Origin: Escherichia coli
GTDB taxonomy: Bacteria > Pseudomonadota > Gammaproteobacteria > Enterobacterales > Enterobacteriaceae
Length of the DNA stretch: 64,000 bases
Reading direction: 5' to 3' (one strand)
Assembly (NCBI RefSeq): GCF_003334315.1
Contig: NZ_QOWR01000008.1
The position numbers and the translations under genes were made by a program. Positions 31,317 to 48,983 of this stretch are shown here, one piece after another (within the stretch, counting starts at the first letter, position 1; each line of letters begins with the position of its first letter). The notes beneath the pieces were generated by a model. That model was not told the origin of the DNA and did no database searches. It saw nothing but the letters and a program-made list of their open reading frames with translations.

Positions 31317-31658
31317 GTATTCTCATGATAACGCCTCGATGCCGCTTTAGTAAGTCATCATAACTGCCACTGGTCCATCCACAAACGCCACTGAACGCAA
31401 GCTAGCTACAGACACGCTCATCACTATGACGTGTCTGTATATTAATAAGCTAACCCGCATTGAGTTAACCAATAACGGATTCCATACACAATACGGCCAA
31501 CAGAGAAAGATACCTGTGCTCACGCCATTGCTTATATTGGCTGGTTACAATGTGCACTATCAATTTTTTAAATAACAAATTCTTAAAACCACTTCTGTAT
31601 AAGGAATTTTTAAGGTTCGTGGGATAGCTTGACTGTAAAAATTACAGGAGCTACAAAA

Positions 31659-32189
31659 ATGAACCGATTCTCAAAAACTCAAATTTATTTACATTGGATA
31701 ACGCTGCTTTTCGTTGCAATAACCTATGCCGCGATGGAACTCCGTGGCTGGTTTCCTAAAGGTAGTAGTACTTATCTGCTGATGCGAGAAACACATTACA
31801 ATGCGGGTATATTCGTTTGGGTGTTAATGTTTTCACGCCTGATTATAAAACACCGTTATAGTGATCCTTCTATTGTACCACCGCCACCTGCCTGGCAAAT
31901 GAAAGCGGCTTCGCTAATGCACATCATGCTTTATATAACCTTCCTTGCACTTCCTCTGCTGGGGATTGCTTTAATGGCTTACAGTGGAAAATCGTGGAGT
32001 TTCCTTGGTTTCAATGTGTCTCCCTTTGTTACCCCAAACAGCGAAATTAAAGCACTGATAAAAAATATTCACGAAACCTGGGCAAATATAGGTTACTTTT
32101 TAATCGCAGCTCACGCTGGCGCAGCACTCTTTCATCACTACATTCAGAAAGATAATACTCTGTTACGAATGATGCCTCGCCGCAAATAA
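31659..32189 (+). CDS. yodB: cytochrome b561-family protein YodB
   Basis: 176 aa from MNRFSKTQIYLHW. Confidence 0.9.
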   Translation: MNRFSKTQIYLHWITLLFVAITYAAMELRGWFPKGSSTYLLMRETHYNAGIFVWVLMFSRLIIKHRYSDPSIVPPPPAWQMKAASLMHIMLYITFLALPLLGIALMAYSGKSWSFLGFNVSPFVTPNSEIKALIKNIHETWANIGYFLIAAHAGAALFHHYIQKDNTLLRMMPRRK

Positions 32190-32757
32190 GTCGATCCCCT
32201 GACAAGGAAATGTGAACCATGGACATCAACGCGTCATAAATGTTTACGCAAGTGCACAATGCACCCTTTCCACTATCAACAAGGAGGAGCAGAAACTGTG
32301 TAAATCGTACAATGGCAAGACTTATCAAAAATACAGATTAATTTTGGTATTTAAACCTTTTTTACTTGTTAGTATGATACAAAGGCTTTCAAAAAAGCTG
32401 GGAAATTCAACAACTCTTGGAAATTATGGACTTTGTCCCGCGGCTTTAATCTGACGGCCGCGTTCCTTTTTTGACTCAATTATTGACCCCTTCTCTACGC
32501 AACTTCAGTTCCCACCACCAACTTTGCGGCAGTTTCATAGGATGAATGTCTAAAAGAATAATGGTGAGCGATAAGAAAACGACTGAATAACTGCACATTT
32601 TCGCTCGAAAGCTTCCTGTCAGATCCATAGCGGATCAAGTGCTGAATGTCACAGTATCGAACAGAAAACAGTGACGATCTAACCCTTCAAGAATATTCTA
32701 CGATTGTTCTGTTTAGGAAAAGCAAGGGGGAAGTCAGGAGATAAGTCATTGATAAAG

Positions 32758-32847
32758 TGGCGGAGAGAGGGGGATTTGAACCCCCGGTAGAGTTGCCCCT
32801 ACTCCGGTTTTCGAGACCGGTCCGTTCAGCCGCTCCGGCATCTCTCC
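32758..32847 (-). tRNA. serU: tRNA-Ser (anticodon CGA)
   Basis: reverse complement folds as Ser tRNA with long variable arm, anticodon loop CU-CGA-AA, 3' CCA. Confidence 0.9.
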
Positions 32848-47319: not shown

Positions 47320-47395
47320 TGGCTCCTCTGACTGGACTCGAACCAGTGACATACGGATTAACAGTCCGCCGTTCTACCGACTGAACTACAGAGGA
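47320..47395 (-). tRNA. asnW: tRNA-Asn (GUU)
   Basis: exact reverse complement of the asnT sequence. Confidence 0.95.
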
Positions 47396-47495
47396 ATCGT
47401 GAGAACGAGGCGAATATTAGCGACGCTCATCCACAATGTCAAAGCCTGTTTTTTAAATTTGAAATCGTTTGCTGAAATAATCTGCACTTTGTCGT

Positions 47496-48983
47496 TTATT
47501 CCGACACAACTGGCTTTTTTTCACACTTTTGCGGCTCAGGTCGAGGATATTTCCACAGCCAACGTCCAGTAACCATTCGCCAGTAAAACAGCACGGCCCG
47601 CACAGCCCAGTCGGCAAACATTCCCATCCAGACACCAACCACACCCCAGCCAAGCATGATTCCCAGCACATAACCGACTACAACCCGGCAACCCCACATG
47701 CTCAACATAGAAACCCACATGGCGTAACGTGCATCGCGAGCACCCTTAAATCCAGCGGGTAGCACCCATGAGGCAGACCAAATAGGCATAAATAAAGCAT
47801 TTAGCCAAATCAGAATCACAACGACATGTTTAACCTGTGGATCCTGGGTGTAAAACGATGCCATAACCCCGGCAAAGGGAGCCGTTAGCCAGGCGATGGC
47901 CGTTAATCCAAGAGTGGAAAGCCAGAACACATGCCGCAACTGAATCTCTGCTTGCGCTATCTGTCCTACACCCAACCTTCGGCCTGTAATGATCGTAGAA
48001 GCAGAGCCGAGCGCACTTCCGGGTAAGTTGATAAGAGCCGCAATTGAAAACGCGATAAAATTTCCGGCAATAACACTGGTCCCCATCCCGGCAACGAACA
48101 TTTGGGTTAATAACCGACCACTGGTAAATAACACTGATTCGACACTCGCGGGAATACCAATCCCCATGACTTCCCAGATAATGCTAAAATTCAGCGGTTT
48201 AAAATAGCTCTTTAACGAAATCCTTAGCGCAGGATTAAAACCAATCGCCAGCACCCACAAAATTGCCACTGCGCCAATATAACGAGAAATGGTTAACCCC
48301 AACCCAGCCCCGACAAATCCCAGTCCCGGCCAGGAGAAAAGGCCGTAAATCAATATGCCGCTAATAATAATATTAAGAATATTCAGGCTACCGTTAATCA
48401 GTAGCGGTATTTTCGTATTCCCTGCACCACGAAGTGCCCCGCTACCAATCAAAGTGATGGCAGCTGCTGGATAACTGAGTACCGTCAGCTCCAGATAAGT
48501 CAACGCCAGTGCTTTAACTTCTGTCGTGGCATCACCCGCGACGAAATCAATAATTTGCTCGCCAAAATGATGAATAAGCGTTGCCAACAGTACGGCAAAC
48601 AACGTCATGATCACCAATGACTGCCGCGTCGCCACCCTCGCTCGTCGTCGATCCCGCTTACCGAGACTAAATGCCACAACGACAGTAGTACCAAGATCGA
48701 TAGCAGCAAAAAAAGCCATAATGACCATATTGAAGCTGTCCGCCAATCCCACGCCGGCCATCGCATCTTTTCCCAGCCAGCTGACCAGAAAAGTGCTCAG
48801 AACCCCCATCAACAGGACACAGGCATTCTCCATGAAGATAGGAACAGCAAGCGGGGTTATCTCGCGCCAGAACAACACTTTGTAGCTCTTGCGTTTAGCG
48901 TGCCAGCGAGTGCCGTGAACAACCTGGCGTAAAGCAGAGGAGATATTCAAAGCCGACCTTAATTGCAGAAAGTGAAACCACAT
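47496..48983 (-). CDS. yeeO: MATE-family efflux transporter YeeO
   Basis: about 495 aa from MWFHFLQ; ORF extends to 49106. Confidence 0.85.
   Translation of the reverse strand: MWFHFLQLRSALNISSALRQVVHGTRWHAKRKSYKVLFWREITPLAVPIFMENACVLLMGVLSTFLVSWLGKDAMAGVGLADSFNMVIMAFFAAIDLGTTVVVAFSLGKRDRRRARVATRQSLVIMTLFAVLLATLIHHFGEQIIDFVAGDATTEVKALALTYLELTVLSYPAAAITLIGSGALRGAGNTKIPLLINGSLNILNIIISGILIYGLFSWPGLGFVGAGLGLTISRYIGAVAILWVLAIGFNPALRISLKSYFKPLNFSIIWEVMGIGIPASVESVLFTSGRLLTQMFVAGMGTSVIAGNFIAFSIAALINLPGSALGSASTIITGRRLGVGQIAQAEIQLRHVFWLSTLGLTAIAWLTAPFAGVMASFYTQDPQVKHVVVILIWLNALFMPIWSASWVLPAGFKGARDARYAMWVSMLSMWGCRVVVGYVLGIMLGWGVVGVWMGMFADWAVRAVLFYWRMVTGRWLWKYPRPEPQKCEKKPVVSE

What the first reader, a model, noticed from the sequence alone, without database searches (positions are those of the whole stretch)
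32190..32757. 570-bp unannotated spacer between yodB and serU with a terminator-like hairpin
No convincing protein ORF is present, yet at about 32435..32472 there is a hairpin (CGCGGC, 12-nt loop, GCCGCG) followed by TTCCTTTTTT on the plus strand. This could be the yodB terminator placed unusually far downstream or the 3' end of a small RNA or micro-ORF transcript (a 7-codon MDFVPRL ORF precedes it).
Basis: seen in the sequence. Interest (0 to 1): 0.3.

Follow-up and report, generated by a model that had tools for sequence, protein, structure and literature searches.

The report
Unannotated phage-derived small RNA gene
The hairpin is a working transcription terminator that ends an unannotated RNA of about 89 bases in the E. 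coli chromosome; this RNA is a kept copy of a small-RNA gene otherwise carried by lambda-like prophages and F-type plasmids, and it sits inside what looks like a prophage remnant next to the serU tRNA gene.

Summary

- **Terminator.** Published Term-seq in E. coli K-12 puts an RNA 3' end on the last T of the tract (window 32472).
- **Gene module.** The hairpin ends a ~165-bp module at 32318-32472. It has a sigma-70-type promoter (TTTAAA, 17 nt, TATGAT) and a predicted ~89-nt RNA: a 5' hairpin, a single-stranded stretch, a GGACUUUGUCC hairpin, then the terminator.
- **Family.** I found 58 distinct copies of the module, 51 of them on lambdoid prophages and IncF plasmids and 7 chromosomal E. coli variants. 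In prophages it lies between Q/tRNAs and the lysis genes, convergent to late transcription. Promoter geometry is kept and the stems covary. No Rfam 15 family matches, and no RefSeq E. coli genome annotates it.
- **Surroundings.** The next 277 bp plus 62 nt of serU match the attP arm of serU-integrating phages, so 32312-32757 is most simply a prophage remnant.
- **Conservation.** The module is in 5418 of 5426 E. coli genomes, including those lacking yodB. It has 1 variable site in 123 bp against 29 in 323 bp of flank.
- **Hfq.** Two RIL-seq data sets list "yodB.serU.IGR" in Hfq chimeras; the partner is ArcZ in one and ompF, by inference, in the other.
- **Open.** The start site and the targets are untested. 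The micro-ORF is unlikely.

The parts
32190..32311 (.). yodB-linked part of the spacer. It belongs to the zinT-stop-to-32311 segment that is present or absent together with yodB.
   Evidence: In about 2360 of 5426 genomes only query positions 137/140-568 match. Examples lack yodB and carry an unrelated ~222 bp after zinT.
32318..32349 (+). Upstream part of the module (AGACTTATC...TTAATTTTGG). It is homologous to the region upstream of the -35 in prophage and plasmid copies and may be a regulator-binding site.
   Evidence: Alignment of 58 distinct copies. Homology between yodB+ and yodB- E. coli forms, and with E. albertii, starts here.
32350..32378 (+). Sigma-70-type promoter: -35 TTTAAA (32350-32355), 17-nt spacer, -10 TATGAT (32373-32378).
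   Evidence: Found by the promoter scan. The geometry TTTAAA-17 nt-TA(G/A)TAT or TATGAT is kept in 54 of 58 distinct copies, 55 counting one TAAAAT copy. The start site is not experimentally verified.
32384..32472 (+). Predicted ~89-nt small RNA. The 5' end is inferred from the -10; the 3' end is mapped.
   Evidence: Covariance-model hit at 32384-32470, 72.9 bits. Fold -23.3 kcal/mol, z = -2.0. Term-seq 3' end at 2043181(+), which is window 32472, in LB at OD600 2.0. RIL-seq 'yodB.serU.IGR'.
32384..32399 (+). 5' hairpin GGCUUU-CAAA-AAAGCU.
   Evidence: Fold. The equivalent 5' hairpin in phage copies covaries, C-G against U-A in 13 and 13 sequences.
32400..32427 (+). Variable, mostly single-stranded stretch (GGGAAAUUCAACAACUCUUGGAAAUUAU). 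It is the candidate base-pairing region and lies within imperfect tandem 18-mers at 32388-32405 and 32406-32423.
   Evidence: Predicted pairing with the ArcZ seed region. It differs completely from the phage copies (CCAAUACUUAUUAUUCUUCAU).
32428..32438 (+). Small hairpin GGAC-UUU-GUCC. It is invariant in the family, but the family was collected with a 16-mer that covers it.
32439..32472 (+). Intrinsic terminator: stem 32439-32445 / 32456-32462, 10-nt loop, then UUCC and U6.
   Evidence: Compensatory C-G to U-A change at stem position 6 in 8 of 29 sequences. The Term-seq 3' end falls on the last U.
32426..32449 (+). 7-codon ORF MDFVPRL. Judged non-coding.
   Evidence: ATG in 41, ACG in 16 and CTG in 1 of 58 distinct copies.
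32481..32757 (.). 277-bp segment shared with the attP-side arm of serU-integrating lambdoid phages.
   Evidence: 95.3-95.7% identity to phages ev099, PhiR70_1 and mEp332, contiguous there with 62 nt of the serU 3' half. A prophage occupies this site in KU052038.
32758..32847 (-). serU, tRNA-Ser(CGA). Its 3' end abuts the spacer and is the phage integration target.

Best explanation
The hairpin and T-tract form the Rho-independent terminator of an unannotated small-RNA gene on the + strand, with its own sigma-70 promoter at 32350-32378 and a transcript of about 89 nt at 32384-32472.

The gene is the chromosomal, vertically kept copy of a ~165-bp promoter-RNA-terminator module. The same module is carried by lambdoid prophages, at the moron site between Q/tRNAs and the lysis genes and convergent to late transcription, and by IncF plasmids.

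The module sits at the outer edge of 277 bp that match the attP arm of serU-integrating phages. The tRNA-proximal 445 bp of the spacer (32312-32757) is therefore most simply what is left of an ancient serU prophage.

What is shown:
- The terminator is used in vivo.
- The family exists, with conserved promoter geometry and covarying helices.
- The module is under stronger constraint than its flanks.
- RNA from this intergenic region appears in Hfq chimeras.

What is inferred:
- The RNA starts at the predicted promoter rather than only by read-through or processing from yodB.
- It acts in trans, on Hfq, by base pairing through its variable single-stranded stretch. It could be a regulator of an mRNA (ompF is a candidate) or a decoy for the sRNA ArcZ.
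- In yodB-carrying strains the same terminator probably also stops yodB read-through.
For: **Terminator used.** Adams et al. 2021 (PMC7815308, Supplementary file 1, sheet LB 2.0) list a 3' end at 2043181(+), class 'orphan'. The sequence given is ...CGCGGCTTTAATCTGACGGCCGCGTTCCTTTTTT. Coordinates map through.

**Module and family.**
- A 16-mer scan gave at least 120 viral contigs, plus phage and plasmid records.
- 58 distinct copies share the upstream region, the promoter geometry (54 of 58, or 55 counting one TAAAAT copy) and the three-helix RNA.
- RNAalifold and pair counts give 95.2% of cells paired, against 41-56% when partners are slid. 0 of 500 shuffles reach the covariation score. Compensatory changes occur in the 5' hairpin and the terminator.

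**Position in prophages.** All four annotated contexts place it between tRNAs/Q and the holin, on the opposite strand.

**Independence from yodB.** It is kept in genomes without yodB.

**Constraint.**
- Present in 5418 of 5426 genomes, and at least 99% identical in 5041.
- 1 variable site in 123 bp against 29 in 323 bp of flank, Fisher p = 0.001.

**Remnant context.** 277 bp plus 62 nt of serU match ev099 and mEp332.

**Hfq association.**
- Bar et al. 2021 (PMC8175672, Table S1; data of Melamed 2016) list yodB.serU.IGR with 39 chimeric fragments in exponential phase and 33 in stationary phase. It is always second in the chimera, and the U-tract length is 6.
- McQuail et al. 2024 (PMC10954441) list yodB.serU.IGR(+) with ArcZ: 85, 90 and 65 fragments, p = 0.0017.

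**Predicted ArcZ duplex.** -31.1 kcal/mol for the K-12 allele (0 of 500 shuffles as good) and -27.5 for the window allele (16 of 500).
Against: - I could not obtain start-site data: Thomason 2015 is not held, and Cappable-seq supplements gave no hit.
- The Term-seq 3' end is in only one of three conditions and has a low read count, 2241.
- The RIL-seq-based sRNA score is low, 0.010 and 0.046, with only 1-2 partners.
- In McQuail's data the region is the first RNA in the chimera and extends back to 2042810, inside yodB. That fits a long yodB 3' UTR as well.
- Hfq CRAC in O157 Sakai lists no peak in this region.
- The U-tract is separated from the stem by UUCC and the loop is large, which is suboptimal both for termination and for the usual Hfq-binding module.
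- Predicted pairing with ompF is no better than shuffles.
- The family was seeded with a 16-mer, so invariance of the GGAC...CGCGG core is partly by construction.
Confidence: 0.7

Rival explanations
1. The hairpin is mainly the terminator of yodB. It gives that mRNA a ~283-nt 3' UTR, and any short RNA is a processed 3' UTR fragment rather than an independent gene.
For: - No other terminator-like site lies between the yodB stop and the hairpin.
- No 'primary' 3' end is listed for yodB in Term-seq.
- The RIL-seq region paired with ArcZ spans 2042810-2043160, starting inside yodB.
Against: - The module is kept, nearly invariant, in about 2360 genomes with no yodB.
- The same module with the same promoter geometry occurs in prophages and plasmids without yodB.
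- The first 122 bp of the spacer are not conserved with the module.
Confidence: 0.2
2. It is an inert relic. A dead prophage left a promoter and a terminator that still fire weakly, and the RNA has no function in the host.
For: - Low Term-seq signal, in one condition only.
- Few RIL-seq partners and a low sRNA score.
- Absent from the E. albertii reference genome, which has deleted the -10 and the transcript.
- Absent next to serU in 78 other Enterobacteriaceae loci.
Against: - Retained in 5418 of 5426 E. coli genomes.
- Ten-fold fewer variable sites than the flanks, p = 0.001.
- The family keeps compensatory base pairs and its promoter across diverse phages. That argues for function at least in the mobile copies.
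Confidence: 0.15
3. The transcript is an mRNA for the 7-residue peptide MDFVPRL.
For: The ORF exists at 32426-32449. An ATG is present in 41 of 58 distinct copies, with the stop in the terminator loop.
Against: - The start codon is ACG or CTG in 17 of 58 copies that keep the RNA structure.
- Only GGA lies upstream as a possible ribosome-binding site.
- The ORF is buried in two hairpins.
- The conservation pattern follows the stems, not the codons.
Confidence: 0.03
4. In its original phage setting the RNA is chiefly a cis-antisense RNA against the late transcript that runs through it. The chromosomal copy, with no late transcript, has lost that role.
For: In every annotated prophage context the module is convergent to Q-dependent late transcription and lies inside the late operon. 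This matches the 'convergent sRNA' niche of Tree et al. 2014.
Against: - The chromosomal copy has no antisense partner, yet it is conserved.
- The plasmid copies are not in late operons.
- The variable 5' half next to a constant 3' half looks like a trans-acting seed plus scaffold.
Confidence: 0.1

Closest known systems
AgvB / AsxR 'anti-sRNAs' of O157 prophages (Tree et al. 2014, PMC4104026)
   Same: - Same genomic niche in lambdoid prophages: the moron site downstream of Q/PR', convergent to late genes.
- Hfq-associated.
- Modular build: a variable 5' pairing region joined to a conserved 3' hairpin-terminator domain.
- Possible decoy action on a core sRNA (here ArcZ, by RIL-seq and predicted pairing).
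   Different: - No sequence similarity. The AgvB 3' domain is AUCAGUAUCUCAUGCUAUUGCCCGAACCCAUUCGGGCAUUUUUU.
- Longer: about 80-89 nt against 51-60 nt, with an extra 5' hairpin.
- The copy studied here lies outside any intact prophage and is near-universal in E. coli.
- The O157 strains listed by the searches carry only the chromosomal copy, and no EcOnc peak lies in this region.
Core-genome Hfq-dependent sRNAs of horizontal or prophage origin (for example DicF, IpeX, EcsR2)
   Same: An sRNA gene with its own promoter and intrinsic terminator, embedded in degraded prophage DNA and specific to the E. coli lineage.
   Different: It is not annotated, not in Rfam 15, and has no characterised target. 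It lies in a tRNA-proximal remnant of only ~445 bp, not in a recognisable cryptic prophage.
Long-3'UTR intrinsic terminators and 3'UTR-derived sRNAs (for example CpxQ, SdhX)
   Same: A terminator shared by an upstream mRNA and a short Hfq-bound RNA. The RIL-seq region extends into yodB.
   Different: This one has a conserved promoter of its own and exists without the upstream gene.
tRNA-linked attB/attP regions of lambdoid phages
   Same: The tRNA 3' half is duplicated in the phage, and prophages sit at this site (KU052038).
   Different: The shared segment is unusually long, about 340 bp including 277 bp outside the tRNA. The host 'attB' therefore looks like an old attR arm.

Membership tests
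Intrinsic (Rho-independent) terminator | G+C-rich stem-loop followed by a U-tract on the transcribed strand | tested here: met
   6-7 bp G+C-rich stem (six G-C pairs plus an optional closing U-G wobble), 10-12 nt loop, then UUCCUUUUUU. Loop and spacer are atypical, so the consensus scan missed it.
Intrinsic (Rho-independent) terminator | RNA 3' ends map to the U-tract in vivo | tested here: met
   Term-seq 3' end at 2043181(+), which is window 32472, in LB at OD600 2.0 (PMC7815308).
Hfq-dependent trans-acting sRNA | Independent transcription unit with a primary 5' end at its own promoter | tested here: inconclusive
   Promoter predicted, and its geometry is kept in 54 of 58 family members, 55 counting one TAAAAT copy. 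No start-site data could be obtained.
Hfq-dependent trans-acting sRNA | Physical association with Hfq | tested here: met
   The intergenic region appears in Hfq RIL-seq chimeras in two independent studies. It is absent from the O157 Hfq-CRAC peak list. Stability in an hfq deletion was not tested.
Hfq-dependent trans-acting sRNA | Seed pairing that changes expression of a target | not testable with these tools
   Only predictions are available. The ArcZ duplex is better than shuffles and the ompF duplex is not.
AgvB/AsxR anti-sRNA family | Shared ~42-nt 3' domain and total length of 51-60 nt | tested here: not met
   The AgvB1 sequence read from Sakai has no similarity to the module. The module RNA is 80-89 nt.
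AgvB/AsxR anti-sRNA family | Encoded convergent to late genes at the moron site downstream of PR' | tested here: met
   True of the prophage copies, not of the chromosomal copy.
Any Rfam 15 family | Covariance-model match | tested here: not met
   Nothing in the spacer apart from two E-value 6-7 matches far below their gathering scores (SNORA13, L20_leader), and nothing on the phage or plasmid copies at E-value up to 1.
Small protein / micro-ORF | Conserved start codon and reading frame | tested here: not met
   ATG lost in 17 of 58 distinct copies.
Prophage remnant at a tRNA gene | Sequence adjacent to the tRNA 3' end homologous to phage DNA flanking attP | tested here: met
   277 bp plus 62 nt of tRNA at 95.3-95.7% identity to ev099, mEp332 and PhiR70_1. 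The direction of transfer is not resolved.

The most novel reading that the evidence does not exclude
The module defines a second, undescribed class of 'moron-site' convergent sRNAs of lambdoid phages and IncF plasmids, built from a constant 3' Hfq/terminator scaffold and an exchangeable 5' seed. E. coli has domesticated one copy as a core-genome decoy or regulator. That copy would tune ArcZ, and possibly ompF, on entry to stationary phase, making it a chromosomal counterpart of the phage anti-sRNAs AgvB and AsxR.
Probability: 0.3. Interest if true: 0.7.

Novelty: new member of a known kind. Interest (0 to 1): 0.5.

Why it matters
E. coli K-12 is the reference organism for bacterial small RNAs, yet this locus has no annotation in any of 5426 RefSeq genomes and no Rfam family.

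If the RNA is confirmed, three things follow:
- It adds a conserved, E. coli-specific, Hfq-associated sRNA to the K-12 list.
- It shows a phage sRNA surviving the decay of its prophage.
- It reveals a widespread phage/plasmid sRNA family whose seeds differ between copies, a ready-made system for studying how mobile elements rewire host sRNA networks.

It also explains why the yodB-serU spacer is so long. The spacer is a mosaic of a yodB-linked variable segment, an sRNA module and a phage attachment arm.

Tried and rejected
- **Rfam, permissive thresholds.** Scans of the window region and of four phage/plasmid copies found nothing relevant.
- **Protein-coding reading.** Five spacer ORFs have no PHROGs or NCBIfam hit. 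The 7-codon ORF is not conserved.
- **Multi-copy repeat or MITE in E. coli.** Rejected, because the median is one place per genome. Terminal CCTTTTTT repeats flank the segment missing in E. albertii, but the element has no terminal inverted repeats.
- **Homology in other genera.** blastn of the spacer and the covariance model both found nothing next to serU in 78 non-E. coli Enterobacteriaceae loci. The exception is partial homology in E. albertii.
- **Identity with AgvB, AsxR or EcOnc22-24.** Rejected after reading those loci in Sakai.
- **Start-site evidence.** Thomason 2015 is not held, and Cappable-seq supplements gave no hit.
- **Melamed 2016 supplements.** Not held. I inferred the exponential-phase partner, ompF, only by matching feature values (15 interactions, SIC 0.094324) in Bar 2021.
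- **ompF pairing.** The best duplex, -20.6 kcal/mol, is no better than shuffles.
- **Literature searches.** Searches for the sequence, for 'yodB.serU', and for yodB + serU + small RNA found no paper describing this RNA.

Full report
**1. Where we are**

The window is E. coli and about 99% identical to K-12 MG1655 in this region. Window coordinate x corresponds to NC_000913.3 x + 2,010,709.
- The local gene order is msrPQ, zinT, yodB (31659-32189, +), serU tRNA-Ser(CGA) (32758-32847, -), mtfA, asnT.
- The 568-bp spacer carries no annotated feature in MG1655 or in any of the listed RefSeq E. coli genomes.

**2. The observation**

- CGCGGC at 32439-32444, a 12-nt loop, and GCCGCG at 32457-32462.
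- TTCCTTTTTT at 32463-32472.
- The ORF MDFVPRL at 32426-32449.

RNAfold adds a U-G pair (7 bp, 10-nt loop) and a small adjacent hairpin, GGAC-UUU-GUCC. The 56-nt stretch folds at -14.9 kcal/mol, z = -2.1. That is unremarkable on its own, and the consensus terminator scan misses the site because of its long loop.

**3. The terminator is used in vivo**

Adams et al. 2021 (PMC7815308) list a curated Term-seq 3' end at 2043181 on the + strand.
- It is classed 'orphan', with a read count of 2241.
- The flanking sequence given is AATTATGGACTTTGTCCCGCGGCTTTAATCTGACGGCCGCGTTCCTTTTTT/GACTCAATTA.
- Position 2043181 is window 32472, the last T of the tract.
- The entry is in the sheet for LB at OD600 2.0 and is absent from the LB 0.4 and M63 0.4 lists.

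**4. The hairpin belongs to a mobile promoter-RNA-terminator module**

Distant blastn of the spacer found 46-nt matches to the hairpin region at 84-87% identity:
- in phage vB_EcoS-683R6;
- in a Salmonella IncF plasmid;
- in a Citrobacter IncF plasmid.

A scan of IMG/VR for GGACYTTGTCCCGCGG returned at least 120 contigs. After I removed chance hits in G+C-rich DNA, 58 distinct copies remained.

Homology extends well beyond the seed. It starts about 110 nt upstream, at AGACTTATC...TTAAGGTTAAT...ATTTAAACC, and runs to the U-tract.

| Feature | Result |
|---|---|
| Promoter TTTAAA, 17 nt, TA(G/A)TAT or TATGAT | kept in 54 of 58 distinct copies (55 counting one TAAAAT copy) |
| Transcribed part | 80-89 nt: 5' hairpin, ~20-28 nt single-stranded, GGACUUUGUCC, terminator |
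| 5' hairpin covariation | C-G in 13 sequences, U-A in 13, at one position |
| Terminator covariation | C-G in 21 sequences, U-A in 8, at stem position 6 |
| Cells forming standard pairs | 95.2%, against 41-56% with slid partners |
| Shuffles reaching the covariation score | 0 of 500 |

Two caveats apply. The GGAC...CGCGG core was the search seed, so its invariance is by construction. Many copies are also closely related.

In the window copy the promoter is at 32350-32378, as the scan found independently. The covariance model built from the family hits 32384-32470 at 72.9 bits. The 3' half is nearly identical to the phage copies. The 5' hairpin and the single-stranded stretch are different sequences with the same architecture.

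**5. Position in phages**

In all four annotated prophage contexts the module lies between the antiterminator Q plus phage tRNAs and the holin/lysis genes, sometimes with a TerB-like moron. It is on the strand opposite to late transcription.

Tree et al. 2014 (PMC4104026) described exactly this niche for 'convergent sRNAs', including the anti-sRNAs AgvB and AsxR. The present family is not AgvB or AsxR:
- AgvB1, read from the Sakai genome, has an unrelated 3' domain.
- EcOnc22-24 lie in tail genes.
- No EcOnc peak falls near serU.
- Rfam 15 has no match to either the window or the phage copies.

**6. The spacer is a mosaic**

*(a) 32190-32311 goes with yodB.* About 2360 of 5426 genomes match only from query position 137/140 onward.
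- The examples examined lack yodB entirely.
- They carry an unrelated ~222 bp after zinT, and homology resumes at about 32312.
- They carry the yersiniabactin island at asnT. This agrees with a report that uses yodB and fyuA as alternative clone markers (PMC10786849).

*(b) 32318-32472 is the module.*

*(c) 32481-32757 plus the first 62 nt of the serU 3' half match serU-integrating phages.*
- Identity to lambdoid phages ev099, PhiR70_1 and mEp332 is 95.3-95.7%.
- In ev099 the block lies between the tail-fibre genes and an AraC-like gene and integrase.
- Prophage SerU-LTIIb occupies this site, with the partial tRNA next to the host spacer. It also carries a phage-type copy of the module.

The simplest history is that an ancient serU prophage lost everything except one sRNA module and its attR arm. 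I infer this; it is not proven, and the direction of exchange of the 277 bp is unresolved.

**7. Age and constraint**

- Next to the same tRNA in 78 loci outside E. coli, neither blastn nor the covariance model finds the spacer or the module.
- E. albertii keeps the upstream/-35 part and the tRNA-proximal 125 bp (85% identity). It lacks the -10 and the transcript, and the missing segment is bounded by CCTTTTTT repeats. This suggests the module predates the E. coli / E. albertii split and was deleted in the latter.
- Within E. coli the 121-bp core is present in 5418 of 5426 genomes and is at least 99% identical in 5041.
- Among seven haplotypes, 32350-32472 has one variable site (the K-12 G-to-C change at 32401). 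The flanking 323 bp have 29, Fisher p = 0.001.

**8. Hfq and partners**

*Bar et al. 2021 (PMC8175672, Table S1, data of Melamed 2016)*:
- 'yodB.serU.IGR' has 39 chimeric fragments with one partner in exponential phase.
- It has 33 fragments with two partners in stationary phase.
- The SIC scores (0 with k = 1, 0.5 with k = 2) mean the RNA was always second in the chimera, the usual sRNA position.
- The nearby U-tract length is 6.
- The model score is low, 0.010 and 0.046.
- The exponential partner's features (15 interactions, SIC 0.094324) are those of ompF. This identification is my inference.

*McQuail et al. 2024 (PMC10954441)*:
- yodB.serU.IGR, + strand, 2042810-2043160, is the first RNA in the chimera and ArcZ is the second.
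- Three libraries gave 85, 90 and 65 fragments, p = 0.0017.
- The region reaches back into yodB, so some of these fragments come from yodB read-through.

*Duplex predictions:*

| sRNA 5' part against | Energy (kcal/mol) | Shuffles at least as good |
|---|---|---|
| ArcZ, K-12 allele | -31.1 | 0 of 500 |
| ArcZ, window allele | -27.5 | 16 of 500 |
| ompF mRNA | -20.6 | 35 of 60 |

The ArcZ pairing is with its seed region, UUUCCCUGGUGUUGGCGCAGUAUUCGCGC. These are energy-only predictions that ignore accessibility.

**9. Mechanism**

Most likely (0.7), this is an independent small-RNA gene of prophage origin that ends at this terminator. It is expressed mainly on entry to stationary phase, is bound by Hfq, and acts by base pairing through its variable stretch.

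Whether it regulates an mRNA or titrates ArcZ is open; I put either specific role at about 0.3-0.4. In yodB+ strains the same terminator probably also ends yodB read-through.

Rivals are a yodB terminator only (0.2), an inert relic (0.15), a role that was cis-antisense in the phage and is now lost (0.1), and a micro-ORF (0.03).

**10. Novelty and score**

The kind is known: Hfq-associated, horizontally acquired sRNAs, and phage 'convergent' sRNAs. This locus and its family are absent from RefSeq annotation and from Rfam 15, and no open-access paper I could search describes them. I class it as a new member of a known kind, interest 0.5.

Noticed in passing
window 31317-32311: The segment from the zinT stop codon to the start of the module, including the whole of yodB, is a presence/absence polymorphism. 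About 2360 of 5426 E. coli genomes have an unrelated ~222 bp instead. The examples examined carry the yersiniabactin island at asnT.
   Followed up: partly
window 32481-32819: A ~340-bp block (277 bp of spacer plus 62 nt of serU) is 95.3-95.7% identical to the attP region of phages ev099, mEp332 and PhiR70_1. That is unusually long host-phage homology for a tRNA integration site. Some genomes carry two copies, as expected when a prophage is flanked by them.
   Followed up: partly
L012 3240-3830 (E. albertii NBRC 107761): E. albertii keeps the module's upstream and -35 part and the tRNA-proximal 125 bp. It lacks the -10 and the whole transcript. The missing segment in E. coli is bounded by CCTTTTTT at 32361-32368 and 32465-32472.
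   Followed up: partly
window 32388-32423: Imperfect tandem 18-mers, TTCAAAAAAGCTGGGAAA and TTCAACAACTCTTGGAAA, lie inside the predicted RNA. Each ends in GGAAA, and with the following bases each reads GGAAAUU, which is complementary to ArcZ AUUUCC. They may explain why the chromosomal RNA is 9 nt longer than the phage copies.
   Followed up: no
window 32401: K-12 MG1655 has C where the window and most strains have G (GCUGCGAAA against GCUGGGAAA). It is the only variable site in the promoter-plus-RNA core among seven haplotypes, and it strengthens the predicted ArcZ duplex.
   Followed up: partly
window 47449-47521 (+): A weak match to the family covariance model (15.8 bits, E = 0.13) lies beside tRNA-Asn at 47320-47395. 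The stems are mostly broken, so it is probably chance or a very decayed copy.
   Followed up: no
L008 1-3900 and L010 1-3900: Other Escherichia lineages have different DNA on the 3' side of serU. Escherichia sp. MOD1-EC7003 has an island with a 423-aa ORF that, by eye only and without any family search, looks nucleotidyltransferase-like, plus other unknown ORFs. E. whittamii has what look by eye like shiA- and amn-type ORFs there.
   Followed up: no
window 31408-31437: The hairpin downstream of zinT (ACAGACACG...CGTGTCTGT) has no T-run in this yodB+ form. The homologous hairpin in yodB-less strains is followed by TTTTTT. zinT read-through into yodB may therefore differ between the two forms.
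   Followed up: no
L001 (strain HS30-1): Locus tag RS08960 is missing between yodB (RS08965) and tRNA-Ser (RS08955). A feature once called in this spacer may have been withdrawn from the annotation.
   Followed up: no
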